This document shows positions 4,478 to 64,000 of a stretch of DNA of 64,000 nt, piece after piece. The stretch comes from Candidatus Amesbacteria bacterium RIFCSPLOWO2_01_FULL_49_25 (GTDB lineage: Bacteria > Patescibacteriota > Microgenomatia > CAZETR01 > Amesbacteraceae): contig MEXP01000009.1 in assembly GCA_001773725.1 (NCBI GenBank), forward strand, positions 5,073-69,072, in the 5' to 3' direction. How positions within the stretch are numbered: the stretch's first letter is position 1; the number at the start of each line of letters is the position of its first letter. A program made the translations under genes and the position numbers. The notes under the pieces were generated by a model that was given only the letters and a program-made list of their open reading frames with translations, was not told the DNA's origin and made no database searches.

Positions 4478-4505
4478 GACTTGCTACCTGGATAACAAAC
4501 CTATG

Positions 4506-10376: not shown

Positions 10377-11127
10377 AAATTATTCCAATATCCGTTTCCA
10401 ACGGGTGGGGTTTAATTTTGACAGTGAAGCCCGATGAGCGCAAAAAGTCAACCAATTCGGGGTGGCGATGAGAGCTTAAGCTGTCGTGATATTCGATGAT
10501 AGCATGTCGAATACGAGAGAGTAACCTTTGAGGAAGGGACATGAGGATGTCATATTCTGAGCCTTCACAATCTAACTTTAGAATATCGCAAACGGTGATG
10601 TCGTACTGCTTAAATATTGAAGCGAGGGTGGTTGTACGAACTTTCTCTATCGATGAACCCGGCCTGGCTGGAAAAAGACTGGATAAACCACTGGCGGGCT
10701 GACTATAAAACTGCCGTTCACCATTGTGGTTTGATACCGCTTGCTGAATGGTGAGAACATGGCCTAGTCCATTGAGCTGCACGTTCTTTTGGAGCAGGGA
10801 GTAAGTTTTTCTAGCCGGCTCGAAGGCTAAGACTTTGGACTGGGGATAGGCTTTAGAGGCGACGAAGGAAAAAGTGCCGATGTTGGCACCGACGTCTATA
10901 ATCCAATGTGGACGGGGAATTCGGGGAAGAGGGTAGTGGCCGTCAATGATTATTTCTTTGATAGTGAGAGCGTCCAGAAAGTGGGTTATTTTGAATTGGG
11001 CACCTGAACGAAGTCGAAGCAAAGATTCCGAAATTAAGCCCAAATACAAGAGAACAATTTCATGCCAGTTTGTGATTTCTCTGGCAATGGGAAATATCTG
11101 GAGATAATAGCGGATTTTTTTAAACAT
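10321..11127 (-). CDS. FkbM-family SAM-dependent methyltransferase (sugar O-methyltransferase-like)
   Basis: 'IIDVGANIGTFSFVASKAYPQSKVLAFEPARKTYSLLQKNVQLNG' and 'LKLDCEGSEYDIL' are hallmark FkbM (Methyltransf_21) motifs. Confidence 0.85.
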   Translation of the reverse strand: MFKKIRYYLQIFPIAREITNWHEIVLLYLGLISESLLRLRSGAQFKITHFLDALTIKEIIIDGHYPLPRIPRPHWIIDVGANIGTFSFVASKAYPQSKVLAFEPARKTYSLLQKNVQLNGLGHVLTIQQAVSNHNGERQFYSQPASGLSSLFPARPGSSIEKVRTTTLASIFKQYDITVCDILKLDCEGSEYDILMSLPQRLLSRIRHAIIEYHDSLSSHRHPELVDFLRSSGFTVKIKPHPLETDIGIIYAKYTSRGTSHRHNSGQK

Positions 11128-12178
11128 CTGGCAGTCTATTAACTAAATGGGTCTTGACCGTCTCTACGAAAAAGACCCAGAGGAAGAGGGTGTTGGTTAG
11201 GCTGGCCAGAAAGAGTTTAGTTCCCATGCGGCTGTCCGGCAGCCAAAAGATCAAAAAGGCGAGAGCCGCGGCAAAGATAAGAAAAAAGGGAACTATGATG
11301 AACTTGCTCAGGAAAATTGAAACTCGCGAAGTCTTCTTTTCAATTGCCGATTTCAACAGTTCTAATAGAAGAAGACAGAGTCCAAGGGTAAAGACCAAGT
11401 ACACAAGAAAGAAGAAAACAGCAAAGTTTGACGGGTATATGTAGATAGCAATCAACGGCAAGAGAGCAATAAGGGGGTAAAGAATTTGTGGCTTGAGTAA
11501 AACTATGGCTTTGAGATGCCGCCAGCCGTCGGACCAAGTGGAAAGGTGCGGAGGTTTGTCACGTTGATCTTTTTTAAACGTTATCGGTACTTCCATGTAA
11601 CTCCCATTTTTGAGAGCGGTTTTCAAAAGCAGTTCGCTCGCCCACTCCATGCCGGAATTTCTCATATTTAACGATTTGTAGAAAGACTTCTTTACCAAGC
11701 GCATGCCCGAGTTGCAGTCCGAAGTATGAATTGAATAAATAATTCTAATTAGAGAGGACAGAATGGGTGTTCCCAGATAGCGATGGAGGACGGGCATGGC
11801 TCCGGGTTCGATGTTGCCGGTTAAGCGAGAGCCGAGGACCAAATCTGGGTGTAAGTTGAGAGTTTCTTTAAATTTTTCCAGATTTGAAAAGGGATAGCTA
11901 AGGTCGGCATCTGCATAAAGAACATACTGACCCCTGCTTCTGAGAATCCCTCCGTGCAAGGCTGCGCCATAACCGCGAATTGGTATGTGGACCACGTTTT
12001 CAAATTTGGCTTTATTGAGGGATTCTAGTGTCCCATCCGTGCTACCGTTGTCGGCGACTATTATTTCGAAATCGGAAGGAAAGAATTTCCGACAGTTTTT
12101 TTTGGCATCTGATATTACTTGCAATATTGTGGACGCCTCATTGAGGCAAGGAATAACTATGCTAATGAATGGTCCCAT
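11120..12178 (-). CDS. GtrB/ArnC/DPM1-like GT2 polyprenyl-phosphate sugar synthase with C-terminal TM helices
   Basis: 'ISIVIPCLNEASTI', 'IIVADNGSTDGT', 'YADADLSYP', followed by ~2-3 hydrophobic helices at the C-terminus (architecture of GtrB/CsbB/ArnC). Confidence 0.8.
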   Translation of the reverse strand: MGPFISIVIPCLNEASTILQVISDAKKNCRKFFPSDFEIIVADNGSTDGTLESLNKAKFENVVHIPIRGYGAALHGGILRSRGQYVLYADADLSYPFSNLEKFKETLNLHPDLVLGSRLTGNIEPGAMPVLHRYLGTPILSSLIRIIYSIHTSDCNSGMRLVKKSFYKSLNMRNSGMEWASELLLKTALKNGSYMEVPITFKKDQRDKPPHLSTWSDGWRHLKAIVLLKPQILYPLIALLPLIAIYIYPSNFAVFFFLVYLVFTLGLCLLLLELLKSAIEKKTSRVSIFLSKFIIVPFFLIFAAALAFLIFWLPDSRMGTKLFLASLTNTLFLWVFFVETVKTHLVNRLPDV

Positions 12179-12194
12179 TCTAGTTGTAAATTTT

Positions 12195-13373
12195 ATGTTT
12201 GATCATATAATTTGTCCAATGAAAAGGTATTATTACCGCGATCTGGAAAAATTGATCCAATTTGTCAGGCCGACGACAGTTTGGCAGAACTTGGTGGGAG
12301 AGATGGAAGATATTCAAACCGAATTAGTGAAACTATTAAAAAAGAGTAAGCCAGAGGACAGGTTGTTGATCGTTTATTATAACCATTTATGGGAACCTGT
12401 GCTGAAGTTGGCATCGATATTGGGATGGAGAAAGAAATTGCCGGAGCAGAATTGGCTGGACGATAAAGATTTGGGAAATATTTGTAATCTGGCAGGTTGG
12501 GAGGTAGTTACCAGTCAGAAAAGAATGCTGCTGCCGGTGGAAATTCCTTTGTTATCAGACTTTACTAATAAATGGCTGGCGCACTTGCCGATGTTTAATT
12601 GGCTATGTCTGACGACGTGGCTGGTGGCCCGGCCAAAGCCAACGAATAGAAGAGATTACTCTGTTTCGATTATCGTTCCAGCAAGAAACGAGGAAGGTAA
12701 TATCCCCGGGATACCGAAAAGCATTCCAAAGTTTGGAAAATGGCAGGAAATAATTTTCGTGGAAGGAGGCTCCAAGGATGACACCTGGGGAGCTATTACA
12801 AAGCTCAAGAAGCAAAGTACAAGGTTTAGGATAAAGGCTTATAAGCAAAAAGGCACTGGGAAGGCGGATGCCATGCGTCTGGGTTTAAAAAGAGCTACTG
12901 GGGAAATATTGATGATATTGGATGGGGATGTGACAGTGAATCCTAAAGATCTGCCAAAGTTTTATGAAGTGCTGGCATCTGGATTGGGAGAGTTTGCTAA
13001 CGGAAACCGAATGATGTATCCCCAGGAACGGGAAGCGATGAGAATGTTGAATAAGGTCGGAAATAAGGTATTCGGGTGGCTTTTAACATTAATACTCGGA
13101 CAGACATTCAGAGACACATTATGCGGGACCAAAGCCGTATTCAAACGAGATTATTTGCGGATCGTTAAAAACAGAAAAATGTTTGGTAATTTTGATCCTT
13201 ATGGTGATTTTGACTTGATATTTGGAGCTGTGAAATTGGGTCTGAAATCAGTAGATGTGCCGGTAAAATATAGAGAAAGAACATATGGGTCGACAAATAT
13301 CAGCAGGTTTATGCACGGTTGGTTGTTAGCCAAAATGTCTTGGTTTGGTTTTTTAAAGTTTAAGGCTTGGTAA
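12195..13373 (+). CDS. GT2 family glycosyltransferase with ~200-aa N-terminal extension of unknown function
   Basis: C-terminal half has 'SVSIIVPARNEEGNI', 'IFVEGGSKDDT', 'ILMILDGDVTV'; the ORF track starts at 11985 but that overlaps the divergent gene by ~190 bp; 12159/12165/12195 are candidate starts. Confidence 0.7.
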   Translation: MFDHIICPMKRYYYRDLEKLIQFVRPTTVWQNLVGEMEDIQTELVKLLKKSKPEDRLLIVYYNHLWEPVLKLASILGWRKKLPEQNWLDDKDLGNICNLAGWEVVTSQKRMLLPVEIPLLSDFTNKWLAHLPMFNWLCLTTWLVARPKPTNRRDYSVSIIVPARNEEGNIPGIPKSIPKFGKWQEIIFVEGGSKDDTWGAITKLKKQSTRFRIKAYKQKGTGKADAMRLGLKRATGEILMILDGDVTVNPKDLPKFYEVLASGLGEFANGNRMMYPQEREAMRMLNKVGNKVFGWLLTLILGQTFRDTLCGTKAVFKRDYLRIVKNRKMFGNFDPYGDFDLIFGAVKLGLKSVDVPVKYRERTYGSTNISRFMHGWLLAKMSWFGFLKFKAW

Positions 13374-14877: not shown

Positions 14878-17158
<2,281 letters not shown>

Positions 17159-17160
17159 GG

Positions 17161-18138
17161 TCAGACTCGGGCGCGCCAGTAGTTGAGAGTGTCCAGAAGA
17201 GTTTGCTCGAATTTAATCCGAGGTTTCCAGCCTGTCTTGGACCGAAATTTGGAGCTGTCCCCGACCAACAAAGGAACGTCGGATGGGCGGATCCGGCTTT
17301 GATCTGCCACGATTTTTATTTTTTGGACACGACTATACTCCAGTAATTTGTCCAGCACGTTTTTTATCACCCAGGCTTTGTCTGAGCTGATGTTGTAAAC
17401 GTCCCCCGGGGTACATTTCAGGACTGATAGATAATATCCTCTCACCATGTCTCTGACGTCAGTAAAATCCCTTTGGGCATTTAAGTTTCCCACCATAATT
17501 CGGGAAGACTGGAGTTTTTTCTCTATTAAGGCGATTTGTTTGGCAAAGTTTGATGCGACAAAGACGTCTCCGCGTCGGGGACCTTCGTGATTAAAACCAC
17601 GAGTGCGAACAATTTTTAATCCATAACTTTTAAAGTACTGGTATCCCATAAAGTCCATGGCGGCTTTAGAAACGGCATAGGGAGAGAGGGGCCGCAGGGG
17701 ATTTGTTTCCTTGATGGGTGTCTCATGAGGCAAAACCAGTCCGTATTCTTCACTGGAGCAAGCTATTTGAATGACAGGGTCAATTTGGGCTGTTCTAACA
17801 GCCTCGAATAAATTGCATGAACCTATCACATTAGTTTCCAGTGTGGCTGACGGTGATGTCCAAGACGCTGGAACGTAACTTTGGCCGGCCAAGTGAAAAA
17901 TATAAGTTGGACGAATAAACATCATCACGTCCTGAATAGACCTGAGGTCCAACAAGTCTGCTTCAACCAGATGGATTCGCCCATTTAAGTGTTCTATGTG
18001 TTCTGAGCGGGACCGCCACCTGACGATGCCGTAGACTTCATATCCTTCTTTGAGAAGCAATTCAGCAAGGTGTGATCCGGCGAAGCCTGTTATTCCGGTA
18101 ATCAGGGTTTTCTTATGGTCTTTTTTTTGTTTTGGCAT
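17161..18138 (-). CDS. gmd: GDP-mannose 4,6-dehydratase
   Basis: 'KTLITGITGFAGSHLAELLLKEGYEVYGI', 'SPYAVSKAAMDF', 'GFNHEGPRRGDVFV', 'VGNLNAQRDFTDVRD', 'RPSDVPLLVGDSSKFRSKTGWKP' match Gmd hallmark blocks. Confidence 0.85.
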   Translation of the reverse strand: MPKQKKDHKKTLITGITGFAGSHLAELLLKEGYEVYGIVRWRSRSEHIEHLNGRIHLVEADLLDLRSIQDVMMFIRPTYIFHLAGQSYVPASWTSPSATLETNVIGSCNLFEAVRTAQIDPVIQIACSSEEYGLVLPHETPIKETNPLRPLSPYAVSKAAMDFMGYQYFKSYGLKIVRTRGFNHEGPRRGDVFVASNFAKQIALIEKKLQSSRIMVGNLNAQRDFTDVRDMVRGYYLSVLKCTPGDVYNISSDKAWVIKNVLDKLLEYSRVQKIKIVADQSRIRPSDVPLLVGDSSKFRSKTGWKPRIKFEQTLLDTLNYWRARV

Positions 18139-18466
18139 TTTTATAAGCGATATTTCTGGAAATTTCCTCTATTTGCCGTTGGAGAGATTTTATACCAACA
18201 TGATTCTGAAAACCCAGATATGCCAATATCATGAAGGCTACTATCGATAAAAGATCCATGGCTCGAGTGACAAACAGCCTGGCTAATATGGGATCTAGTA
18301 TCCGGGGGTTAAGAGCAAAATAGGTGAACGACACCCAAACCAATAACCAGTACACAAACTCTCGGCGAGTAATGTTCCCCTGTTTGCGATGGACGAACGC
18401 CACATATAGCATAAATGCGGCAAACATGACGGCAATGATTTGTATTCCTAGGAGAGCCTCCACCAT
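18113..18466 (-). CDS. Small 4-TM membrane protein, DUF2304-like
   Basis: 117 aa, hydrophobic helices with 'GNITRREFVYWLLVW' spacing; such proteins typically flank DPM1/GtrB-like GT2 genes. Confidence 0.5.
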   Translation of the reverse strand: MVEALLGIQIIAVMFAAFMLYVAFVHRKQGNITRREFVYWLLVWVSFTYFALNPRILDPILARLFVTRAMDLLSIVAFMILAYLGFQNHVGIKSLQRQIEEISRNIAYKNAKTKKRP

Positions 18467-19113
18467 ATAGTATTTGCAAGAATTTTTAGTGCGTCTATTA
18501 TGGACGTGCCTTTGTATTTGTCAATGTAGATGGGTTCGATGGGAAATTCAGTATATTTTAATAGGTGTTTATTTTTTCCCAGCTTGGCAATCATTTCCGT
18601 TTCAACACCATACCGAGGTGATGTCCATTTTAAAAGTTGATATGCCCTGAATGAAAGAGCCCTAAATCCGGATATCAAATCTGAAACGTATACGCCAAAG
18701 AGGACATTGATATAAATTGAGGCTAATTTATTGCCGAAGAGCCTGACGAATGGGGTGTGTAAAGACGGACGGCGCGAACCGATGACCACGTCAAACTTTT
18801 GATTGAGCAGATGGATAAACATGCTTATGTCTTGGGGTAAATGTTGGCCGTCTGTATCCATGAAGATTATAGCCTCGGCTTTGTGAGAGAAAGCGTATTC
18901 AGCGCCGGTTTTTAAGGCAGATCCTTTTCCCAGGTTGACAGGGTGACGAAGCAGAGTGACCGTTTTTGACTGGGTAGGGATTTGGACCGGTTGAACCGAA
19001 CCGTCATCGATAACCACAATATTTAAGTGGGGATGGAGTGAGAGGATAGCCGTTAAGACATCTACAAATCTAGCCCCCTCGTTGTAAACCGGCAATATTA
19101 ACCAAATGTTCAT
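18448..19113 (-). CDS. DPM1-like GT2 glycosyltransferase (polyprenyl-phosphate hexose synthase-like, soluble)
   Basis: 'IWLILPVYNEGARF', 'IVVIDDGSVQP', 'FMDTDGQHLPQDI'; start set at MNIWLIL. Confidence 0.8.
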   Translation of the reverse strand: MNIWLILPVYNEGARFVDVLTAILSLHPHLNIVVIDDGSVQPVQIPTQSKTVTLLRHPVNLGKGSALKTGAEYAFSHKAEAIIFMDTDGQHLPQDISMFIHLLNQKFDVVIGSRRPSLHTPFVRLFGNKLASIYINVLFGVYVSDLISGFRALSFRAYQLLKWTSPRYGVETEMIAKLGKNKHLLKYTEFPIEPIYIDKYKGTSIIDALKILANTIWWRLS

Positions 19114-19117
19114 ATTC

Positions 19118-20224
19118 TCATCCAACCCAATAGCCCCGAACAAACAGTGCTACCACCTCAAAAAAGAATAAAGCCAGGATCGCAAAAAAGAAGAGACGGA
19201 AGCGTGGTTTGGCGCTAGCTATCTGACCCAAGATAATAAAAGACGGAAAGCAGGCAAGTACATATCTTGGGAGAGAGACGAAACTGCCGGTAAAAGTGGG
19301 TACTAAGTAAGCTGCCAAATTAAAAATTATGTAAGAAGGGCGAATTTTTTTGAATGCAGATAAAATTGTTGTGAATAAAAACATTAAAGCGGTAACCAAT
19401 TCCAGCCAGAGGGTGTAATAAATAGGGTCGGTTTTGGTTACGGTAACCACCATTCTGGTGTACCGGTAAAAAACCTGAGGAAGAAGGATAATTCGCTCAC
19501 TTCTAAACTGCCCGTAGAGTTTTTGGACGTGAATGAAAGCCAGGGAATCACCGACAGTATTTTGCAAAAAAAGCATATATGAAATCAATCCTAAAGGAAC
19601 TAAAAAAGCTGGTAATAGGCCAATCAGGCTGCGCCTTTGCTGCCAAAACTCTAATAGAAGAGCGGGAAACATAAAAATACCCACGAAGCGAGTGTTGGCC
19701 GCTAAGGCGCCCAGGACGGCCGCAATCCACCAGCGGCGGGCACGAGCATAGTAAAAGGAGGACAATACTAAAAGTATAAATAAACTTTCGGTATATACAG
19801 CGCCAAAATAAAAACTGGTGGGAAATGCGAGCAGGGCTAAAAGCGAATACCTGGCCGCTGCTGAAGAATAATCTAACTCAATCAGACGAACAAAAAAAAT
19901 GCATGCAAATAGAAACGCAACGGAAGAAATTATTACCCCAGTTAGAGTGTCGTTTTTAATCTGGGGAATCAAGAGTTTCATAATATTCGGGTAAAGCGGG
20001 AAGAAGGCCTCTTCGGCATAGCCGTACCCGTTTTTGGCAATCCTGATGTAATGGTTGCCGTCGAAATTGGCCCGGGAGTATAAAAGTGGATTCTGCAAAA
20101 ATGTCTTTGTACCAATGCCCAAATAAGTTTCTCTCAGGGGCAATAGTTTGGGGGCCAATATGGCAATGACTATGATCGCTAGTTGCCAAATCGAGTAGTA
20201 TTTAATTATTGTCTTTGTCTTCAT
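19118..20224 (-). CDS. Polytopic membrane protein resembling PIG-V/Gpi18-type mannosyltransferase (GT76-like)
   Basis: 'ANFDGNHYIRIAKNGYGYAEEAFFPLYP' matches the W/FDxxHYLxIAxxGY...E..AFFPLxP signature of PIG-V family; ~9 TM. Confidence 0.5.
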   Translation of the reverse strand: MKTKTIIKYYSIWQLAIIVIAILAPKLLPLRETYLGIGTKTFLQNPLLYSRANFDGNHYIRIAKNGYGYAEEAFFPLYPNIMKLLIPQIKNDTLTGVIISSVAFLFACIFFVRLIELDYSSAAARYSLLALLAFPTSFYFGAVYTESLFILLVLSSFYYARARRWWIAAVLGALAANTRFVGIFMFPALLLEFWQQRRSLIGLLPAFLVPLGLISYMLFLQNTVGDSLAFIHVQKLYGQFRSERIILLPQVFYRYTRMVVTVTKTDPIYYTLWLELVTALMFLFTTILSAFKKIRPSYIIFNLAAYLVPTFTGSFVSLPRYVLACFPSFIILGQIASAKPRFRLFFFAILALFFFEVVALFVRGYWVG

Positions 20225-21210
20225 AGTAATTCCTCATAAACCATTAAAGTTTGGCTGGCGGTTTTTTCCCAGGAAAAGGTGTTGACGACGACTCTTTTTT
20301 GCTTAATGGCCGCAGATAGGCTTGAGACGATGTTATCTACGCTGTAAGGGTCGAAGTAAACTACTGTGTCGCCGGCGACTTCTGGTAGAGATCCGGACCG
20401 ACTGCAGGCAACGGGCGTGCCACAGGCTTGCGCTTCCAAAACCGGCAAGCCGAAACCTTCGGATAACGACGGCTGGCAGTAAACAGAGGCAAGGTTATAT
20501 ATATCAACCAAGTCGTCAACAAATCCCAGGCGGGTAACTCCGGACCAATTAATATCCCGTAAATGCCGGAGTTCGGGATGGGATAAATTTAATTTCTCCA
20601 TTTCCAAGGCTTGTTTTCCGACTATCACGAGGGGAAGACTTAATTTTTTACATGCCTGAACCAGTAAGGGAATGTTCTTGTTGTAGTTGATGTCGCCGAC
20701 GTAGAGAACAAATTTGGAAGGTAAATTATATTTGTTTGCCGGGTGAGGAATTTTTTTAAACACGGGGTCGGCGGCTAGATGAACAAGGCGGAGCTTGTGC
20801 GGAGGGACACCCAAAAACTTGTTTATATTGGTTAGGGAGTAAAAAGAGTCGGTAATGACCCGGTCGACGTTGGATAAAGATAGTTTCTGAAACTGTAAAT
20901 TTATCCATCCGCGAACGCCCGGAGGGTAATGGTCGGGGAACACCAGGGGTATGACGTCATGGATAGTGACCACTGTTTTAGTACTTTTTATTATGGGTAA
21001 AGAGGCTGTAAACAGATCAAAAAACGGGTAGTGCACAATATCTAAATTTGAATTTCTAAATTCTAAATAACTTCCGATTTCTAATATTTCAAATCCTAAA
21101 TCAGAAGCCATTGGTTTCATGTGATTCAAGAGTCTTTTGGTATAGAAACCGACGCCGCGGACGGCGTGACCTGAAGAAAGTGGGGTAATGACGAAACCAA
21201 CTCGGGTCAT
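20221..21210 (-). CDS. GT4 family (group 1) glycosyltransferase
   Basis: C-terminal 'SLSEGFGLPVLEAQACGTPVACSRSGSLPEV' (EX7E-type GT4 motif); alternative start MTRVGF chosen for ATGA overlap with next gene. Confidence 0.85.
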   Translation of the reverse strand: MTRVGFVITPLSSGHAVRGVGFYTKRLLNHMKPMASDLGFEILEIGSYLEFRNSNLDIVHYPFFDLFTASLPIIKSTKTVVTIHDVIPLVFPDHYPPGVRGWINLQFQKLSLSNVDRVITDSFYSLTNINKFLGVPPHKLRLVHLAADPVFKKIPHPANKYNLPSKFVLYVGDINYNKNIPLLVQACKKLSLPLVIVGKQALEMEKLNLSHPELRHLRDINWSGVTRLGFVDDLVDIYNLASVYCQPSLSEGFGLPVLEAQACGTPVACSRSGSLPEVAGDTVVYFDPYSVDNIVSSLSAAIKQKRVVVNTFSWEKTASQTLMVYEELL

Positions 21211-21986
21211 GATGGATACTTGGTATGCTGCCAATACTTGATATAGGACACGGGGTGGATGAGCCCTGAGAAAACAGCGAAAATAAATCCGGGCGTGCCA
21301 TCGACATAGCCGCGGTGACGAATGTAAATGCCCAGGAAAGTTGATAGGGGTTTGAGAAAGAGATACAGAAAAGTATTTGTTAACCCAAAATTAACTTTTT
21401 TGTTTTCAAGTTGTGAAGAAATGAACGAGCTGTAGCGATTGAAGCCTTCCATATATTTTTCGAAACTGGTATCCCGGTAGTGGAGAAGATCATGCTTGAG
21501 ATGACCGATTGGTGGTTCAACGGTGGCTTGTTCGTGTACATCCTTGGCGGGGAGCCGACCGAGGCCGCGGCGATAAAGACGAAGAGTAGGATCGGGATAC
21601 TGACCTCCCTTGGATAAAAAGCGAGTAAGAAACCAATTACGACGATTGATCCAGTACCCATTGATTGGTGATTGTCCATCTTTGATTGCTATGGTGATTT
21701 CTTGTGCCAACTCCGGGGAAACGACCTCGTCTGCGTCCAACTGCAATATCCATTCACCTTTCGCATTATCGATGGAGACGTTCTTGGTGATATGGAAGTT
21801 GTCCTGATGAGAAACTGGTATCACTCTGGTGCCAAATTTTTTGGCAATTTCTACTGTTTTGTCAGTTGATTTTTCATCGGCTATGACTATCTCATCAGCG
21901 ATTGTTTTGACAGACTCTAAACAGCGGCCAAGTTTTTCTTGTTCGTTACGCGCGGCCAAAACAACTGATAATTTGAGAGTTTTCAT
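21207..21986 (-). CDS. GT2 family glycosyltransferase
   Basis: 'LSVVLAARNEQEKLGRCLESVKTIADEIVIADEKSTDKT', 'ILQLDADEVV'. Confidence 0.85.
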   Translation of the reverse strand: MKTLKLSVVLAARNEQEKLGRCLESVKTIADEIVIADEKSTDKTVEIAKKFGTRVIPVSHQDNFHITKNVSIDNAKGEWILQLDADEVVSPELAQEITIAIKDGQSPINGYWINRRNWFLTRFLSKGGQYPDPTLRLYRRGLGRLPAKDVHEQATVEPPIGHLKHDLLHYRDTSFEKYMEGFNRYSSFISSQLENKKVNFGLTNTFLYLFLKPLSTFLGIYIRHRGYVDGTPGFIFAVFSGLIHPVSYIKYWQHTKYPS

Positions 21987-28365: not shown

Positions 28366-29573
28366 AGGGTGAACCAGGTAAATAAATTGATGACGCTTAG
28401 GGCTTTGGTGAAAATGGGAGTGTAAAGGGCGATGGCGAAGGGCATGGTTGGAGCGAACCACATGTTGTATTGATTGGCCAAAAAGGTAAAGGACAGAACG
28501 GCGTATTGAATCCAGATTTTGCGGCCGATAACTATTAGCCAGGACATAAGGGGAAACAGGGGGTACATGTAGCGCTCGTGCATACGAACGGAAAAGAGAA
28601 AGAAACCAAAGTAGACGATCAGTAATTGACTGACTAAATTATGCTCAGAGGGGTTTTTCCAAATGGATCGAAGAGTAACTGCAAATATCAATAACAATAG
28701 GAACACTGAAATTATATTGGCGGGGATGGTGAGAAAGAGCGAGGTGTCAGGAACTAGATCTATAGGGAAGAAGACGTGCCAGAAATTGAAGGCGTTGACG
28801 GTGATAAATGGTGATTCTCCCGGCAAGATCCGATTCAAATAGAGTTTGGTTAGCCAAAACGGAAGATCGAGTCTGGGATGGAAGGGAAAAAATAACAGTA
28901 ACGAGGACGCGCCGACCGACGCCAGATAAGTCCAGAAGTTTTTAGGAAATTTCCTGATTGCATAAATTGTGAATACTATTAAGGCTGGAGACCATGAAGC
29001 TTTGGTGACGAGTGAAGTCCCCAACAGAAATCCGGAAAGGACCAGGCGTTTTTCGAAGAGAAAGATCAGGCTCCAAACGGCCAAGGCGGCGACGATACAA
29101 TCGTTTTGCCCCCAAAGAGCGGAGTTGTACCACAAAGGAGGGTTAAGCAAATAGACTAAGCCGACTAGCTGGGAAACCTTGCTGGATTTACCAATTTTGA
29201 TAATAGCGGCAAAAAGAGCTATGTCCCCTAAAACGGAGGGCAGCTTGAGGCTGACTACGTCACCCCATCTTTGCCACCACCAAACTAATGTCGAGGGGAA
29301 AAAGGGGATTTTCAAATTGAGCTGCCAGAATAATTTGTTACCAAAGTCGTTGAGCTGATATGAAAGTGTATAAAGATAAACACTGCCGGCTGGTTGGTTG
29401 GGGCGGCTCTGAGGCCAGAAAACGGATCGCGGTAAATCATAAAAATCGACAAGGCCGAGTTTGGAGGCATTCCCGGCCCAATTCCAGCCGTTATGCAAAT
29501 CACCGTGTTTAGTGAATGTCGACACCCACAATCGCCAAGCAATTAACAAGACAATGAGAATTTTATATTTCAT
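28341..29573 (-). CDS. Polytopic membrane protein family E (unknown; possible GT-C)
   Basis: 'FTKHGDLHNGWNWAGNAS' loop after TM1, ~10 TM; shares 'FT[SK]H[PG]D' loop with 40769-41932. Confidence 0.4.
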   Translation of the reverse strand: MKYKILIVLLIAWRLWVSTFTKHGDLHNGWNWAGNASKLGLVDFYDLPRSVFWPQSRPNQPAGSVYLYTLSYQLNDFGNKLFWQLNLKIPFFPSTLVWWWQRWGDVVSLKLPSVLGDIALFAAIIKIGKSSKVSQLVGLVYLLNPPLWYNSALWGQNDCIVAALAVWSLIFLFEKRLVLSGFLLGTSLVTKASWSPALIVFTIYAIRKFPKNFWTYLASVGASSLLLFFPFHPRLDLPFWLTKLYLNRILPGESPFITVNAFNFWHVFFPIDLVPDTSLFLTIPANIISVFLLLLIFAVTLRSIWKNPSEHNLVSQLLIVYFGFFLFSVRMHERYMYPLFPLMSWLIVIGRKIWIQYAVLSFTFLANQYNMWFAPTMPFAIALYTPIFTKALSVINLFTWFTLWPKKSSS

Positions 29574-60620: not shown

Positions 60621-62071
60621 ATATTGTGAACCAAACGCAGAACTTTTACACCCCAGGGGAAAGTCCATTCCTGGTCAATTTTGGACCAACCGAAGGCGGC
60701 GATTTCCCATAACGGGTTGTTAATTGGTTCACAGTCACTTTGTTCACAAATGACGAATAGTTGATCGGTCAATTTGTCATGGATGGTGTAATAAGGGGCA
60801 TCATTCAATTGCATAAAGTAGCGATAACTGGCGTCGTAGTTGTTTTTGGCGAGCAAGGCTAAGTTGAAAGGGGAATTTTGGGACTGCGATTTGATGAAGT
60901 TTGCTATTTCTATGGTGCGTGCCAGCTGATTGTTCGGTGAATTGCGGAAAGGGTTATTTTGAAGGGAGACAAAGAACAACGGTAGAACCAGCAGGATTCC
61001 CATAAACGCCAGTTTGGTTTTTTGGAACAGCTGGTTCAGAACGAAACCTAAAAGAAGAAAAATTGCCGGAAAAATAAAACCGTAATAATGATCATAGATG
61101 TGTTGTTTGTACAAACCGAGACCAATCAGGCCAAATCCCAACCAAGAAATAACGAACCAGGCGGCGGGTGATAAGCGGCGGCGAATGGCGTAAAGGATGG
61201 CCAAATCAAACAAACCGAAGGCCGCCCACTTGCCCACTAAGGAATTTTTGCCGGCGAGAAGACTCGTTGCCATGTCTTGCCAAATAGGCCAGAGATTGGG
61301 AACGGCTTTATATACTTTGAAATTGACAGTGGTTTGACGGTCTGTAAAAAAGGTTTTCATGGAGGAATAATTTTGCCAGCCGTGGCGTAAATCAAAGATG
61401 ACCAAGGGCGACATGAGTAATATCAAAATCCCAAACCCCATGAGCCAATATTTTTTGTTTGACTTCTTATCCGAGCTTAAGAATAAAAATAAAAGAATTG
61501 TGGGAAGTAGGAGAAAGCCTAAATAGTGAGAGTTGAGGACAAACGCAAAAGAAACTGCTGAGATGATTAGCCAGCGCCAGCGGCTGAAACGCCAGATATT
61601 CCAAACTCCATACATGGTTAAAAGAGCAAAAAAGGCCATGATATTGGGATTCCACGAAGAACGGGAGTAAATAATAACAGTGGGTGAAAGAGCGTACAAA
61701 GCTGAAACGGTCAATCCCGGCCAGCGTCCAAACCACGAGCGGCTGATCCACCATAAGAGCGCTACGGTTAACAACCCGAGTAAGGCCACAAAAACTGCAG
61801 GGCCAACGGGAGATAGGTTGAATAAAGCCAGAGAGGGGGCGGCTAAATAATAATAGAGAGGACCGAGATACATGTTGCCGATGGAAGTACCTGGACCAAT
61901 GGCGGGAAAGTGTTTGAGAGCGACAATGCCCTTCATAACAAGGGCGTCACGGCCTTCGTCGCCCAGAAAAGTCATGTATTGGTCTATTTTGTAAAGACGC
62001 AAGAAGGCTCCGAGGAGCAAAATGGAAATGATTGCGATTTTTTCTAGTCTCGTTATCGAAGTTTTTTCCAT
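60617..62071 (-). CDS. GT-C-fold membrane glycosyltransferase, ArnT-like (family B)
   Basis: 'TFLGDEGRDALVMKGIVAL...NMYLGPLYYYLAAPSLALF'. Confidence 0.7.
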   Translation of the reverse strand: MEKTSITRLEKIAIISILLLGAFLRLYKIDQYMTFLGDEGRDALVMKGIVALKHFPAIGPGTSIGNMYLGPLYYYLAAPSLALFNLSPVGPAVFVALLGLLTVALLWWISRSWFGRWPGLTVSALYALSPTVIIYSRSSWNPNIMAFFALLTMYGVWNIWRFSRWRWLIISAVSFAFVLNSHYLGFLLLPTILLFLFLSSDKKSNKKYWLMGFGILILLMSPLVIFDLRHGWQNYSSMKTFFTDRQTTVNFKVYKAVPNLWPIWQDMATSLLAGKNSLVGKWAAFGLFDLAILYAIRRRLSPAAWFVISWLGFGLIGLGLYKQHIYDHYYGFIFPAIFLLLGFVLNQLFQKTKLAFMGILLVLPLFFVSLQNNPFRNSPNNQLARTIEIANFIKSQSQNSPFNLALLAKNNYDASYRYFMQLNDAPYYTIHDKLTDQLFVICEQSDCEPINNPLWEIAAFGWSKIDQEWTFPWGVKVLRLVHNI

Positions 62072-62754
62072 AGCCGAAATAGGTCGACAAAACTTTTGAT
62101 AATGACATTCAAGTTGGCCCCAGTGCCGGAACCTGTTTTTCGGGGATAATGATGGACTCCAATTTCGATTATTTTGAATCCTGATTTTTTGGCTTTAATA
62201 AGGAACTCGCTAGAAATAAAGGCTCCCCGCGATGATTCCAGTTTGGGGATAGTGTCAATAACTTTTTTGGAAATAAGTTTAAATCCGCAGTCGATGTCCC
62301 GGATATTTAAACCAAAGAGTAAATTTACTGCTGTTTGCCAAAGTAGAGTATTAGCTTTTCGGTAAAAAGGGACTTGCCTTTTTAAGTAATAGCCAACAAC
62401 TAAGTCAGCCCCAGTTTGCTTTTGATTGTGAATAAAATTTGTAATTTCGGAAAAATCAAATTGGCCATCGGAGTCTGTAAAAGCTATCCAGGGAAATTTG
62501 GCGGCGTATAGTCCGCTTCTTAGGGACGCGCCGTAACCTTGATTGGGATTATGAGTGACGACTTTGATTCGTGCATCCTGGCGGACTAGTTTGGCGGCAA
62601 TTTCAGCTGTCCGGTCTTTGGATCCGTCGTTGACGATTATTATCTCCCAGTTTTTGACGACTTTTTCCAAAATTGATTTGGCCTTAACAACGGTATTTTC
62701 TATTTGTTCTTGTTCGTTGAAGGCCGGAAAAAAGACCGATAGCTCATCAAGCAT
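62053..62754 (-). CDS. DPM1-like GT2 glycosyltransferase
   Basis: 'LSVFFPAFNEQEQI', 'IIIVNDGSKDRT', 'IAFTDSDGQFD'. Confidence 0.8.
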   Translation of the reverse strand: MLDELSVFFPAFNEQEQIENTVVKAKSILEKVVKNWEIIIVNDGSKDRTAEIAAKLVRQDARIKVVTHNPNQGYGASLRSGLYAAKFPWIAFTDSDGQFDFSEITNFIHNQKQTGADLVVGYYLKRQVPFYRKANTLLWQTAVNLLFGLNIRDIDCGFKLISKKVIDTIPKLESSRGAFISSEFLIKAKKSGFKIIEIGVHHYPRKTGSGTGANLNVIIKSFVDLFRLWKKLR

Positions 62755-62787: not shown

Positions 62788-63828
62788 GTGACCAGAGTGG
62801 TAAGAGATTTACTGATCTTGGCGGGTGTGGCTGTGGGATCGACAGTGATTTTGTGGATTACGACAGGGATGAAGGTGGTATATCAAAATTTTGACGGGCC
62901 ATATTACACGGCCGTTGCCAAGTGCTTTTATAACAAAGATTGCCTGGGTAAAAGTTTTGATTTTCCTTTGAAACTGGAATATTACCCGGCGCATTTCCCG
63001 TTGTACCCTACATTCATTAAGTTGATGGAGCCACTTGGGTTGATAAGGGCGGGGTTAATAATAAATATATTGGCCACAGTGGCGGCGGCAATTGTAATAT
63101 ATGAAGTAACAAAGAGGAATTTGTGGATAGCGATGACCTGGTTATTCTTCTGGCCAAGGATGTGGGTGGTGAGATCGATTGCTAGTCCAGAAACTTTATT
63201 TATTTTGTTTGTAGTTTTATCTTTATATCTTTTTGAAAAGAAAAGCTATTGGATGTCTGCATTGGCTGGATCGGCGGCGGTTTTGACAAAAAGCCCGGGA
63301 GTATTGTTGTTCGCGGTTTATGCATTGATGTTTGCAAGAAAACCGGACTCCAAAATATGGCCGGTTTTATTGATCCCCATAACATTGCTAGGGCTGTTTT
63401 ACTTTTTCAAAGTGCAGACAGGTGATTTCTTCGCCTACTTCCATTCGGGGGACAATATTCATTTACAATACTTGCCGTTTAAGGTGTTTGACAGCGGTCA
63501 ACCGTGGGTGGGGACGTTTTGGCTGGAGGATGTGTTGTGGATATACCTAATTGGAGCGATTGGAGTAATTAAAACTATGAGAAAAAATCAGGTGTGGGGC
63601 TACTTCGGAGTGGTGTTCTACGCGACTATTTTGTTCGTGTCACACCGGGATATTGCCCGGTATAGTCTGCCATTGGTGCCGGTAGTTTTGATCGGATTAT
63701 CTGAAATTTTTGAACGACGCGAAGTCAGATGGGCAATGGCGCTGCTTGTCGTACCGATGTTTTTTTACAGTGTGAATTTTCTGCTTCATAACCAATTGTC
63801 AATAGCCGACTGGGCTCCGTTTTTGTAG
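62788..63828 (+). CDS. Polytopic membrane protein resembling PIG-V/Gpi18-type mannosyltransferase (paralog of 19118-20224)
   Basis: 'QNFDGPYYTAVAKCFYN...YYPAHFPLYP' aligns with 'ANFDGNHYIRIAKNGYGYAEEAFFPLYP' of the other copy; ~8 TM. Confidence 0.45.
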   Translation: MTRVVRDLLILAGVAVGSTVILWITTGMKVVYQNFDGPYYTAVAKCFYNKDCLGKSFDFPLKLEYYPAHFPLYPTFIKLMEPLGLIRAGLIINILATVAAAIVIYEVTKRNLWIAMTWLFFWPRMWVVRSIASPETLFILFVVLSLYLFEKKSYWMSALAGSAAVLTKSPGVLLFAVYALMFARKPDSKIWPVLLIPITLLGLFYFFKVQTGDFFAYFHSGDNIHLQYLPFKVFDSGQPWVGTFWLEDVLWIYLIGAIGVIKTMRKNQVWGYFGVVFYATILFVSHRDIARYSLPLVPVVLIGLSEIFERREVRWAMALLVVPMFFYSVNFLLHNQLSIADWAPFL

Positions 63829-63837
63829 CCCTTCGAC

Positions 63838-64000
63838 TCAGGACTTCGGGGCATTGGTCTTCGTTTTCCAAATGAATTTGTTGTAGATGTAGTAGTTGAC
63901 GATGAGAACGATAAAGATGGCGCCGAAGTAGAAAAATTGGATAATGACGGCACTGCCGCGGGCAAAAAACTCGCCGATACGCAGGATGACAAACTGAATG
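63838..64000 (-). CDS. GtrA-family small membrane protein, 3'-partial (runs off window end)
   Basis: Minus-strand frame ending in TGA at 63838-63840 translates '...FVILRIGEFFARGSAVIIQFFYFGAIFIVLIVNYYIYNKFIWKTKTNAPKS*', matching the GtrA C-terminal VNYxxNxxWxF pattern; replaces the low-complexity ORF-track call 63786-63992. Confidence 0.5.
   Translation of the reverse strand, partial: IQFVILRIGEFFARGSAVIIQFFYFGAIFIVLIVNYYIYNKFIWKTKTNAPKS

What the first reader, a model, noticed from the sequence alone, without database searches (positions are those of the whole stretch)
19118..20224. Two PIG-V/Gpi18-like (GT76-type) membrane proteins in a bacterial locus
19118-20224 contains 'NFDGNHYIRIAKNGYGYAEEAFFPLYP'. 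The plus-strand gene 62788-63828 contains 'NFDGPYYTAVAKCFYN...YYPAHFPLYP'. The first matches the signature block of eukaryotic GPI mannosyltransferase II (PIG-V) and of actinobacterial homologs. Two copies, one at each end of the locus, support lipid-linked mannose or hexose transfer outside the cytoplasm.
Basis: partly seen in the sequence, partly recalled or inferred. Interest (0 to 1): 0.55.

Follow-up and report, generated by a model that had tools for sequence, protein, structure and literature searches.

The report
Two small GT-C membrane glycosyltransferases
Two related small membrane enzymes in an uncultured groundwater bacterium (Candidatus Amesbacteria) most likely attach lipid-carried sugars to a cell-surface molecule; one is a real but distant relative of the eukaryotic GPI-anchor enzyme PIG-V, which databases already flag, so the finding is correct in part and fairly ordinary.

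Summary
They lie in intact genes: A (19118-20224, minus strand, 368 aa) and B (62788-63828, plus strand, 346 aa). The window is 100% identical in these proteins to Candidatus Amesbacteria RIFCSPHIGHO2_02_FULL_47_9 (CPR/Microgenomates).

A passes Pfam's PF04188 (PIG-V) threshold: 32.6 bits against a cut-off of 22.4. Its family aligns to real PIG-V sequences over the N-terminal half only (hhalign 97%, E=1e-10). It aligns much worse to the locus's own PMT_2-type GT-C proteins (50%).

B has no PF04188 hit, and neither do any of 40 relatives. It is nonetheless a true divergent paralogue of A (hhalign 99.6%, E=7e-24).

Confident AlphaFold models (pLDDT 91 and 88) match only GT-C fold glycosyltransferases.

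Neither family keeps PIG-V's second acidic motif residue. Only one Asp, plus a Tyr four residues later, is conserved, as in PimE.

Gene context supports lipid-phosphate-sugar donors. A is followed by a PpgS-like GT2 and a DUF2304 (GacI/GacJ-like pair). B sits between two such GT2 genes.

The sugar (mannose?) and the acceptor are unknown. A's most conserved partner is an upstream GT4 (61/72 genomes).

Verdict: new members of a known kind, already auto-annotated; moderate-to-low interest.

The parts
19118..20224 (-). Protein A: 368-aa GT-C fold membrane glycosyltransferase with about 11 TM helices; PF04188 (PIG-V-like) member by Pfam threshold
   Evidence: ORF. PF04188 32.6 bits against cut-off 22.4. 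AF2 pLDDT 91.3. Foldseek significant hits are all GT-C enzymes. hhalign to PIG-V 97%, E=1e-10. 100% identical to NCBI OGD04527.1, 'hypothetical protein'.
19988..20068 (-). Signature block NFDGNHYIRIAKNGYGYAEEAFFPLYP in the first extracytoplasmic loop of A. The candidate catalytic Asp55 is codon 20060-20062, with invariant Tyr59.
   Evidence: Translation. N53 F54 D55 G56 Y59 F75 P76 are invariant in 40/40 sequences. D55 is the first residue of the loop helix 55-65 in the model. D55 aligns with invariant PIG-V D67.
62788..63828 (+). Protein B: 346-aa GT-C fold membrane glycosyltransferase; a divergent paralogue of A that no Pfam family covers
   Evidence: ORF. No Pfam hit. Family hits are GT87 16/40, PMT_2 14/40 and PF04188 0/40. 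hhalign to the A family 99.6%, E=7e-24. AF2 pLDDT 87.9. Foldseek significant hits are all GT-C enzymes.
62887..63009 (+). Signature block NFDGPYY...YYPAHFPLYP of B. The candidate catalytic Asp36 is codon 62893-62895, with Tyr40.
   Evidence: Translation. N34 D36 G37 H69 P71 P74 are invariant; Y40 is present in 39/40.
20221..21234 (-). GT4 glycosyltransferase (337 aa). Its stop overlaps A's start codon by 4 nt (ATGA). It is the most conserved partner of the A family.
   Evidence: Pfam Glycos_transf_1. Junction sequence. An orthologue lies directly upstream on the same strand in 61 of 72 loci.
21207..21986 (-). GT2 glycosyltransferase (259 aa), upstream of the GT4; a frequent member of the GT2-GT4-A module
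   Evidence: Pfam PF00535. Found within 1.4 kb upstream of A in 38 of 67 loci. The best solved relative is GmaR at 68 bits.
18448..19143 (-). GT2 of the polyprenyl-phosphate glycosyltransferase type (PpgS/GacI/DPM1-like), directly downstream of A. The real start is probably the ATG at 19113, 4 nt after A's stop.
   Evidence: The best NCBIfam hit is PpgS, 98.9 bits over the whole profile but below its cut-off of 370. PDB hits are Dol-P-Man synthase 5mlz, GtrB 5ekp and ArnC. Start analysis.
18113..18466 (-). DUF2304 small membrane protein (117 aa); GacJ/Rv3632-like activator of the adjacent GT2
   Evidence: Pfam PF10066 59.3 bits. The role of GacJ and Rv3632 is described in 10.1101/180810.
15480..18138 (-). 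Sugar-nucleotide genes in the same operon: GDP-mannose 4,6-dehydratase (17161-18138), GT2 (16400-17158) and a GDP-L-fucose-synthase-like reductase (15480-16403)
   Evidence: Pfam GDP_Man_Dehyd 275 bits. NCBIfam gmd 190 bits and Fcl 302 bits, both below their equivalog cut-offs.
62053..62754 (-). GT2 of the polyprenyl-phosphate glycosyltransferase type (233 aa), transcribed divergently from B (33-nt spacer). It heads the GT2-PMT_2-PMT_2 operon.
   Evidence: PDB hits: ArnC 63 bits, GtrB 49, DPMS 43. NCBIfam hits to ArnC and Dol-P-hexose transferase. The arrangement is conserved in L007-L009, and the GT2 is fused to the PMT_2 protein in L008 and L009.
63838..64000 (-). 3' end of a gene convergent with B: the orthologue of a GT2 + GtrA_DPMS_TM fusion protein, cut off by the window edge
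   Evidence: Translation. 85% identity over 46 aa (E=4e-25) to the C-terminus of the L007 414-aa protein, which carries PF00535 + PF04138. The 53-aa fragment alone gives no Pfam hit.

Best explanation
A and B are paralogous, minimal GT-C fold glycosyltransferases of roughly 350 aa. Each has about 11 transmembrane helices, with the N-terminus inside the cell, and neither has a large soluble domain. Each most likely takes a single sugar from a polyprenyl-phosphate-sugar on the outer face of the cytoplasmic membrane and transfers it, with inversion, to a surface glycoconjugate. The invariant Asp at the start of the first extracytoplasmic-loop helix (D55 in A, D36 in B) would act as the catalytic base. 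It would be braced by the invariant Tyr four residues later, as D58 and Y62 are in PimE. The lipid-linked donor would be made on the cytoplasmic face by neighbouring GT2 enzymes: the PpgS-like GT2 plus its DUF2304 helper for A, and the ArnC/GtrB-like GT2 and the GT2-GtrA fusion for B. For A, the acceptor is probably a glycolipid or lipid-linked glycan begun in the cytoplasm by the translationally coupled GT4 and the upstream GT2. Shown here: homology, fold, conserved residues and conserved gene order. Inferred: topology, donor class, catalytic residues and the link to neighbouring enzymes. Unknown: the sugar and the acceptor.
For: Fold: the AF2 models are confident (pLDDT 91.3 and 87.9). All significant Foldseek hits are GT-C enzymes or GT-C-like proteins: STT3, ArnT, ALG9/12/3/6, PIG-M, PIG-U, PimE, AftA, Emb, Pmt4. 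No SEDS protein or O-antigen ligase is among them.

Family: A hits PF04188 above threshold. The A family against PIG-V gives 97%, E=1e-10, with D55=D67, E146=E170 and R179=R203. A against B gives 99.6%.

Active site: D55 and Y59 are 40/40 in family A; D36 is 40/40 and Y40 is 39/40 in family B. The Asp starts the loop helix in both models. This matches PimE, where D58 at the tip of JM1 and Y62 are both essential (PMC12041525).

Topology: the K/R-rich short loops (ARR, QRRS, KKIR in A; TKRN, KKS in B) and the basic N-termini fall on one side. The invariant D/E/R/H residues fall on the other side.

Donor supply: the GT2 next to A is PpgS-like and is followed by a DUF2304. This mirrors GacI/GacJ/GacL and PpgS/Rv3632 (10.1101/180810). 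B is flanked by an ArnC/GtrB-like GT2 and a GT2-GtrA fusion, and that arrangement is conserved in three other genomes.

Operon: GT4 and A overlap by 4 nt, and the gap between A and the GT2 is 4 nt. GT4-A adjacency holds in 61 of 72 genomes.

General rule: most GT-CA families use lipid-P-monosaccharide donors (PMC10920833).
Against: There is no biochemical evidence for any member of either family. The PpgS-like GT2 is directly downstream of A in only 7 of 71 related loci, so that pairing is not a constant feature. The GT2 divergent from B is fused to a PMT_2 GT-C in two genomes, so it probably serves that enzyme rather than B. All GT2 assignments are far below the NCBIfam equivalog cut-offs. 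Structural matches are remote (TM-score normalised by query length 0.39-0.58, E no better than 8e-5), and STT3, which uses lipid-PP-oligosaccharide, ranks first. Invariant D118 of A falls on the cytoplasmic side in my topology count, which is unexplained. I could not inspect model coordinates, so the position of the Asp in a pocket is not verified.
Confidence: 0.7

Rival explanations
1. A is a true functional counterpart of PIG-V/Gpi18: an alpha-1,6-mannosyltransferase that uses polyprenyl-phosphate-mannose to extend a mannose-containing glycolipid. The glycolipid would be GPI-like, PIM-like or lipomannan-like, with the conserved GT4 making the lipid-proximal sugar.
For: PF04188 membership. 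Specific profile match to PIG-V, including the first-loop block, against only 50% to PMT_2-type proteins. A GT4 is conserved directly upstream, and PIG-A and PimA are GT4 enzymes (established knowledge). The GT4's best solved relative is MshA, an inositol-phosphate GlcNAc transferase, at 60 bits. GDP-mannose-utilising enzymes are in the same operon.
Against: Only the N-terminal 186 residues align, and A is 125 residues shorter than PIG-V. PIG-V's invariant second acid E69 (D/ExE motif, PMC6056205) is Ile, Asn or another non-acidic residue in 35/40 of family A. The adjacent GT2 resembles a GalNAc-P-polyprenol synthase more than any Man-P synthase. The operon converts GDP-mannose towards fucose rather than using it as such. 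No inositol or phosphatidylinositol genes were seen in the window. The GT4-MshA score is ordinary for cross-family GT4 similarity (NCBIfam MshA 45.6 bits against cut-off 462).
Confidence: 0.12
2. A and/or B transfer a preassembled oligosaccharide from a lipid-diphosphate carrier, acting as an oligosaccharyltransferase, ligase or polymerase rather than a single-sugar transferase.
For: STT3 subunits are the top Foldseek hits for both models. In many related loci a Wzx-type flippase directly follows the A-family gene. The window also encodes Wzx and Wzm/Wzt exporters.
Against: Both proteins lack the large C-terminal extracytoplasmic domain of STT3/PglB/AglB; they are 346-368 aa against 640-870 aa. 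No SEDS, O-antigen-ligase or polymerase structure appears among the significant hits. The nearest sequence families (PF04188, GT87, PMT_2) all use lipid-P-monosaccharides. Polyprenyl-P-sugar synthase genes flank both.
Confidence: 0.1
3. One or both proteins are catalytically inactive GT-C-like scaffolds or substrate-binding subunits, as PIG-U is in the GPI transamidase.
For: PIG-U structures (8imx_U, 9ub7_B, 7w72_U) are among the fold matches. The two-acid motif of PIG-V is reduced to a single Asp.
Against: The first-loop Asp is invariant in 40/40 of both families, together with several other invariant charged residues. PIG-U lacks any such motif (PMC6056205). PimE works with a single essential Asp.
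Confidence: 0.05

Closest known systems
PIG-V / Gpi18 (GPI mannosyltransferase II; Pfam PF04188, CAZy GT76)
   Same: A passes the PF04188 threshold. The first-loop block aligns residue for residue (NFDGNHY..GY...AFFPLYP against WDAEHF..GY...AFFPGFP), and so do the downstream Y(T/S)E and (T/V)R motifs. The GT-C fold and the N-in topology with an acidic first loop are shared. B shares the same block more weakly.
   Different: Only the N-terminal half aligns. A is 368 aa and B 346 aa, against 493 aa. PIG-V's invariant E69 (the second acid of D/ExE) is not conserved. B has no PF04188 hit. The organism is a CPR bacterium with no sign of GPI or inositol-lipid genes in the window. Donor sugar and acceptor are untested.
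PimE (mycobacterial polyprenyl-P-mannose:Ac1PIM4 mannosyltransferase; GT87; PDB 9dm5/9dm7)
   Same: It is similarly small, with no soluble domain, and has a GT-CA fold. It has a single essential Asp at the tip of the first loop helix, plus an essential Tyr four residues later. It is a fold hit for A (TM-score normalised by query length 0.42). 16/40 of family B and 7/40 of family A give weak GT87 Pfam hits.
   Different: The Pfam hits are all weak (best E=8e-6), and none was found for the window proteins themselves. The Foldseek match is marginal (E=0.06).
GacL-GacI-GacJ (S. pyogenes) and Rv3779-PpgS-Rv3632 (M. tuberculosis): extracytoplasmic glycan decoration systems; Gtr-type three-component systems
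   Same: The parts list matches that around A: a GT-C enzyme, a GT2 polyprenyl-phosphate-sugar synthase and a DUF2304 helper, tightly packed in one operon. B lies next to a GT2 with a GtrA-type membrane domain.
   Different: A and B are not sequence relatives of GacL or of the GtrC-type enzymes, as far as tested. The GT2+DUF2304 pair accompanies A in only a minority of related genomes. No separate flippase is assigned for A in this window.
PMT_2 / ArnT-like GT-C proteins (GT39/GT83-type), 13 or more paralogues in the same window
   Same: Same superfamily and same locus. Some members of families A and B give weak PMT_2 hits. UniProt names A and B 'Glycosyltransferase RgtA/B/C/D-like domain-containing protein'.
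   Different: About 130-200 residues longer. The profile match to A is only 50% and excludes the first-loop block. They lack the NFDG...FPLYP signature.

Membership tests
Pfam PF04188 Mannosyl_trans2 (PIG-V/Gpi18; CAZy GT76) | Scores above Pfam's gathering threshold against the PF04188 HMM | tested here: met
   Protein A: 32.6 bits against 22.4, E=7.6e-8, residues 47-185 against profile 54-205 of 443. 25 of 40 family A members hit at E<=0.1.
Pfam PF04188 Mannosyl_trans2 (PIG-V/Gpi18; CAZy GT76) | Same test applied to protein B | tested here: not met
   No hit for B at E<=1. 0 of 40 family B members hit PF04188. The B family against the PIG-V profile gives only 89.7%, E=1.8e-6.
Pfam PF04188 Mannosyl_trans2 (PIG-V/Gpi18; CAZy GT76) | Full-length homology to PIG-V (10 TM helices, about 440 profile positions) | tested here: not met
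   Both the Pfam match and the hhalign match stop at A residue 185/186, which is PIG-V residue 210 of 493. The C-terminal halves do not align.
Pfam PF04188 Mannosyl_trans2 (PIG-V/Gpi18; CAZy GT76) | Conserved D/ExE motif followed by an aromatic residue in the first lumenal loop (PMC6056205) | tested here: not met
   The first acid is conserved (D55 and D36, 40/40). The position aligned to invariant PIG-V E69 is Ile 16, Asn 12, Glu 5 and other residues 7 in family A, and Pro 34/40 in family B.
Pfam PF04188 Mannosyl_trans2 (PIG-V/Gpi18; CAZy GT76) | Dol-P-Man/polyprenyl-P-Man-dependent alpha-1,6-mannosyl transfer to a GPI intermediate | not testable with these tools
   This needs an enzyme assay or complementation of PIG-V- or gpi18-deficient cells.
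GT-C fold glycosyltransferases, GT-CA structural class | Polytopic membrane fold matching solved GT-CA enzymes | tested here: met
GT-C fold glycosyltransferases, GT-CA structural class | Conserved acidic residue in the first extracytoplasmic loop, at the start or tip of a juxtamembrane helix | tested here: met
   D55 (A) and D36 (B) are invariant and are the first residue of loop helices 55-65 and 36-46. That the loop is extracytoplasmic is inferred from the positive-inside pattern.
Three-component extracytoplasmic glycosylation systems (GT2 lipid-P-sugar synthase + flippase/helper + GT-C) | Polyprenyl-phosphate glycosyltransferase-type GT2 encoded beside the GT-C gene | tested here: met
   18448-19143 is PpgS/DPMS/GtrB/ArnC-like. 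62053-62754 is ArnC/GtrB-like. The GT2-GtrA fusion 3' end is at 63838-64000. For A, this adjacency recurs directly downstream in only 7 of 71 related loci.
Three-component extracytoplasmic glycosylation systems (GT2 lipid-P-sugar synthase + flippase/helper + GT-C) | Dedicated flippase or helper membrane protein (GtrA, Wzx, MATE or DUF2304) | tested here: inconclusive
   A DUF2304 helper is present next to A's GT2. For B's neighbour, a GtrA-type domain is shown only by orthology of a 53-aa fragment. No flippase is assigned specifically to A in this window.
Pfam PF09594 GT87 (PimE-like) | Significant hit to the GT87 HMM | tested here: not met
   No GT87 hit for the window's A or B. Only weak hits are found in relatives: 16/40 in family B (best E=8e-6) and 7/40 in family A.
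NCBIfam NF046093 AZOBR_p60025 family (cell surface glycopolymer formation protein) | Score above the curated cut-off of 150 bits | tested here: not met
   B scores 46.1 bits and A 19.6 bits.

The most novel reading that the evidence does not exclude
The conserved GT2-GT4-A module, found in most of the Microgenomates-type genomes sampled, might be a bacterial pathway that builds a membrane-anchored glycolipid in the same way as the eukaryotic GPI core or mycobacterial PIM/lipomannan. A GT4 would attach the first sugar to a lipid on the cytoplasmic face, and a PIG-V-type GT-C would extend it outside from a lipid-phosphate sugar. Family A would then be a prokaryotic sister of the GPI mannosyltransferase II lineage. 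These lipid-scavenging, host-attached bacteria would carry a previously unrecognised glycolipid anchor.
Probability: 0.06. Interest if true: 0.75.

Novelty: new member of a known kind. Interest (0 to 1): 0.3.

Why it matters
On its own this is a modest annotation refinement. Two 'hypothetical proteins' of an uncultured CPR bacterium can be called small GT-C glycosyltransferases with a named candidate catalytic Asp/Tyr pair and plausible donor-supplying neighbours. One is a bona fide, if partial, PF04188 (PIG-V-type) member.

Three points go slightly beyond routine:
- Family B (more than 1,800 database relatives) is not captured by any Pfam family. It could seed a new GT-C family once an activity is shown.
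- The A family is tied to an upstream GT4 in about 85% of genomes, which gives a testable two-enzyme module.
- The surrounding 64 kb carries at least 16 GT-C-like and at least 17 GT2 genes in a genome of roughly 1 Mb. This points to a very large investment in surface glycans by bacteria thought to live attached to other cells.

No bacterial PF04188 member appeared as characterised in the literature searched, so any assay result would be new.

Tried and rejected
- PDB sequence and profile searches with A, B, A1 and A2 found no relative. The only hit was a chance match to chlorite dismutase at E=1.5.
- I asked whether the 387-aa membrane protein at 40769-41932, which follows a GT2-GT4 pair in the same order as A, is a third family member. 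It is rejected: hhalign probability 0.1% and no Pfam or NCBIfam hit.
- Pfam on the 53-aa edge fragment gave nothing. Orthology had to be shown by direct comparison instead.
- I looked for a B-family gene near A-family genes in other genomes. None lies within 6 kb in any of 52-65 loci, so the two are separate modules.
- NCBIfam gave no above-threshold name for A, B or the partner GT2s.
- tRNA and Rfam scans of the window were empty.
- Literature searches for PF04188, COG5542, 'Gpi18-like' and for CPR glycosylation found no functional study of a bacterial member. The search that included AZOBR_p60025 returned no paper containing that term.
It was used only to fetch database sequences (97% identical to a cluster named GPI mannosyltransferase 2). 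Only those returned sequences entered the alignment.
Full report
**Observation**

ORF 19118-20224 is on the minus strand and encodes a 368-aa protein, called A here. It carries NFDGNHYIRIAKNGYGYAEEAFFPLYP at residues 53-79, which is window 19988-20068. ORF 62788-63828 is on the plus strand and encodes a 346-aa protein, called B. It carries NFDGPYYTAVAKCFYN...YYPAHFPLYP at residues 34-74, which is window 62887-63009. The two proteins are paralogues. BLASTP gives 27% identity over 195 residues, E about 1e-11. Their family profiles align over 270 columns with hhalign probability 99.6%, E=7e-24.

**Source and public status**

A is 100% identical to 'hypothetical protein A3D85_01935' of Candidatus Amesbacteria bacterium RIFCSPHIGHO2_02_FULL_47_9, a member of the Microgenomates group of the Candidate Phyla Radiation. 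B is identical to A3D85_02760 of the same organism.

UniProt's automatic name for both is 'Glycosyltransferase RgtA/B/C/D-like domain-containing protein'. The precomputed Pfam label of A is PF04188. JGI names many relatives of both families 'Gpi18-like mannosyltransferase', and NCBI names a relative of A 'mannosyltransferase family protein'. CAZyme inventories of ordinary bacteria routinely list GT76 genes, for example Streptomyces and Isosphaera. A PIG-V-like gene in a bacterium is therefore already known at the annotation level. I found no functional study of a bacterial member.

**The requested test: PF04188**

A hits PF04188 with E=7.6e-8 and 32.6 bits, above the gathering score of 22.4. 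The match covers only residues 47-185, against profile positions 54-205 of 443. Among 40 diverse relatives of A, 25 hit PF04188, 11 PMT_2, 7 GT87 and 3 ALG10.

B has no Pfam hit at all. Among 40 of its relatives, none hits PF04188, 16 hit GT87 weakly and 14 hit PMT_2 weakly. NCBIfam gives only sub-threshold matches to NF046093, described as a cell-surface glycopolymer formation protein: B 46 bits and A 20 bits, against a cut-off of 150.

**Direct comparison with PIG-V**

I retrieved real PIG-V sequences by querying with a remembered human sequence. It proved 97% identical to a database cluster named GPI mannosyltransferase 2. I then aligned 20 of the returned tetrapod proteins.

- Family A against PIG-V: probability 97.0%, E=9.7e-11, 187 columns, covering A residues 1-186 and PIG-V residues 5-210.
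D55 aligns with D67, E146 with E170 and R179 with R203, all of them invariant in PIG-V.
- Family B against PIG-V: 89.7%, E=1.8e-6.

As a specificity control I aligned the 13 PMT_2-type GT-C paralogues of the same window.

- Family A against them: only 49.7%, E=1.7e-4, without the first-loop block.
- Family B against them: 87.6%.
- PIG-V against them: 36.9%.

A is therefore specifically PIG-V-like in its N-terminal half. B is about equally distant from PIG-V and from the PMT_2 type, and its nearest relative is A.

**What does not fit PIG-V**

- The C-terminal halves do not align, and A and B are 125-147 residues shorter than PIG-V.
- PIG-V's published first-loop signature is D/ExE followed by an aromatic residue (PMC6056205).
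- The first acid is invariant in both families.
- The position aligned with invariant PIG-V E69 is Ile 16, Asn 12, Glu 5 and other residues 7 of 40 in family A. In family B it is Pro in 34 of 40.
- What is invariant instead is Asp plus a Tyr four residues later: D55/Y59 in A and D36/Y40 in B.
- That is the arrangement of the essential D58/Y62 pair at the tip of the first juxtamembrane helix in the solved mannosyltransferase PimE (PMC12041525).

**Structure**

AlphaFold2 models built on the family alignments are confident: A has pLDDT 91.3 and pTM 0.92, and B has pLDDT 87.9 and pTM 0.89.

Foldseek against the PDB returns, at significant levels, only GT-C glycosyltransferases or GT-C-like subunits: STT3/AglB/PglB, ArnT, ALG3/6/9/12, PIG-M, PIG-U, PimE, AftA/AftB, EmbA-C, Pmt4 and DPY19. 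TM-scores normalised by the query length are about 0.39-0.58. No SEDS protein or O-antigen ligase is among them. There is no close solved relative, and sequence searches of the PDB find nothing.

In both models the invariant Asp is the first residue of a short helix in the loop after TM1. Counting Lys and Arg in the loops between model helices gives an N-in topology with about 11 helices. The short basic loops lie on the N-terminal (cytoplasmic) side. The invariant D, E, R and H residues lie on the other side. The exception is D118 of A, which I cannot explain. Topology is inferred, not measured.

**Context of A**

A sits inside a tightly packed minus-strand operon:

- GT2 (21207-21986)
- GT4 (20221-21234), whose stop overlaps A's start in ATGA
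- A
- a GT2 of the polyprenyl-phosphate glycosyltransferase type (18448-19143, probable ATG at 19113, 4 nt after A's stop)
- DUF2304 (18113-18466)
- GDP-mannose 4,6-dehydratase
- GT2
- a GDP-fucose-synthase-like reductase

The downstream GT2 is most like PpgS, the mycobacterial polyprenyl-phospho-GalNAc synthase. It scores 98.9 bits over the whole profile, below the cut-off of 370. It also matches the solved Dol-P-Man synthase, GtrB and ArnC.

A GT2 of this type followed by a DUF2304 protein is the GacI/GacJ pair of Streptococcus pyogenes and the PpgS/Rv3632 pair of M. tuberculosis. There the small protein stimulates synthesis of the lipid-phosphate sugar, and a GT-C enzyme (GacL) then uses it outside the cell (10.1101/180810). 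This is the general three-component logic reviewed in PMC11127046.

**Conservation of A's context**

A scan of one genome per species found relatives in at least 578 species, and the best 80 are all Microgenomates-type CPR genomes. In these loci:

- An orthologue of the GT4 lies directly upstream on the same strand in 61 of 72 loci with room.
- The upstream GT2 is within 1.4 kb in 38 of 67.
- The PpgS-like GT2 is directly downstream in only 7 of 71, though it occurs within a few kb, often with DUF2304, in roughly 15.
- In many loci a Wzx-type flippase follows A instead.

The constant partner of A is therefore the GT4, not the lipid-sugar synthase.

**Context of B**

- B is transcribed divergently, with a 33-nt spacer, from a GT2 (62053-62754) that resembles ArnC, GtrB and Dol-P-hexose synthases.
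- That GT2 heads a GT2-PMT_2-PMT_2 operon.
- In two other genomes this GT2 is fused to the first PMT_2 protein (735 aa), so it probably serves that enzyme rather than B.
- On B's other side, the last 162 bases of the window encode the C-terminus of a convergent gene.
- That fragment is 85% identical over 46 residues to a GT2 + GtrA_DPMS_TM fusion protein found at the same position in other genomes.
- B is therefore flanked on both sides by lipid-phosphate-sugar synthase genes, and this arrangement is conserved.
- No B-family gene lies within 6 kb of an A-family gene in any locus examined.
- At least seven long contigs appear to carry both, judging from matching longest-contig lengths in the two hit lists.

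**Interpretation**

The best-supported reading is as follows. A and B are minimal GT-CA-type enzymes that transfer a single sugar from a polyprenyl-phosphate carrier to a surface glycoconjugate on the outer face of the membrane. The first-loop Asp would act as catalytic base.

Most GT-CA families use lipid-P-monosaccharide donors (PMC10920833). The nearest sequence families (PF04188, GT87, PMT_2) all do as well.

The sugar is unknown. 'Mannose' rests only on the family name. The neighbouring synthase looks more like a GalNAc enzyme, and the operon makes a GDP-6-deoxyhexose.

The acceptor is unknown. For A it is probably the product of the coupled GT4 and GT2.

The rivals are an oligosaccharide-transferring role, a true PIG-V-like mannosyltransferase on a GPI/PIM-like lipid, and an inactive scaffold. 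All three are less likely, for the reasons given in their entries.

**The wider locus**

Glycosylation genes fill the whole window:

- a Wzm/Wzt ABC exporter with a Wzt_C domain at 112-2392
- an FkbM-type methyltransferase
- an asparagine-synthase-type amidotransferase
- a Wzx-type flippase
- at least 17 GT2 genes
- two GT4 genes
- at least 16 GT-C-like membrane proteins

A lies 19 kb in from the left edge.

**Verdict**

A is a PF04188 member by the curated threshold, but only over its N-terminal half and without the full PIG-V motif. B is a divergent relative outside any Pfam family. Both are new members of a known kind, GT-C glycosyltransferases acting with lipid-linked sugars. They are already flagged by automatic annotation and have no experimental characterisation.

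Noticed in passing
window 1-64000: The whole window is one glycosylation locus, almost entirely on the minus strand. It holds at least 16 GT-C-like polytopic proteins (13 PMT_2-type paralogues of about 480-560 aa, plus 54070-55575, the 2732-8888 trio, A and B), at least 17 GT2 genes, 2 GT4 genes, a Wzx-type flippase (50952-52430) and a Wzm/Wzt exporter with a Wzt_C domain (112-2392). This is a striking density for a CPR genome of roughly 1 Mb.
   Followed up: partly
window 40769-43669 (-): There is a second GT2 - GT4 - polytopic membrane protein trio in the same order as GT2-GT4-A. The GT2 (42920-43669) is 32% identical (E=2e-38) to 21207-21986. The 387-aa membrane protein (40769-41932) has no Pfam or NCBIfam hit and no hhalign match to family A (probability 0.1%). 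It may be an unrecognised membrane glycosyltransferase or polymerase.
   Followed up: partly
L008 3768-5975 and L009 3772-5982 (orthologues of window 60617-62754): In two related genomes the polyprenyl-phosphate-type GT2 and the first PMT_2 GT-C protein are fused into one polypeptide of about 735 aa. The donor-making and donor-using enzymes are thus in a single chain. In this window they are separate but overlapping genes (62053-62754 and 60617-62071).
   Followed up: no
window 56990-57742 (-) and 11120-12178 (-): Two further GT2 genes were hidden by overlapping spurious or over-extended ORFs. One is 250 aa, 41% identical to the GT2 at 55568-56314. The other is 352 aa with a hydrophobic C-terminal region. 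ORF 11154-11444 (+) and the N-terminal part of 11985-13373 (+) are probably not real as listed.
   Followed up: partly
window 37927-38439 (-): A 170-aa protein resembling DNA-deoxyinosine glycosylase (TIGR04274, 62.6 bits, below the cut-off of 80) sits in the middle of the glycosylation operon. It looks out of place functionally.
   Followed up: no
window 36320-36850 (-): A 176-aa ORF with a methyltransferase-like NLPFG motif lies in a stretch that my first gene list left empty. It was not scanned against any family library.
   Followed up: no
window 28462-29569: A 1.1-kb stretch between two PMT_2-type genes has no ORF above 76 aa and no detectable remnant of any window paralogue. Its nature was not examined further.
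   Followed up: partly
window 32652-34472 (-): An asparagine-synthase-type glutamine amidotransferase lies inside the locus. It scores 436 bits to the XrtA/PEP-CTERM-associated amidotransferase model, below that model's cut-off of 817, and passes the generic AsnB model. It may amidate a sugar acid in the glycan.
   Followed up: no
L054 and many loci L014-L079 (record titles): Many MAG records holding close relatives are titled 'uncultured Gammaproteobacteria', and one is titled 'Bathyarchaeia archaeon'. Their gene content and identity to Microgenomates proteins suggest placeholder or wrong taxonomic labels.
   Followed up: no
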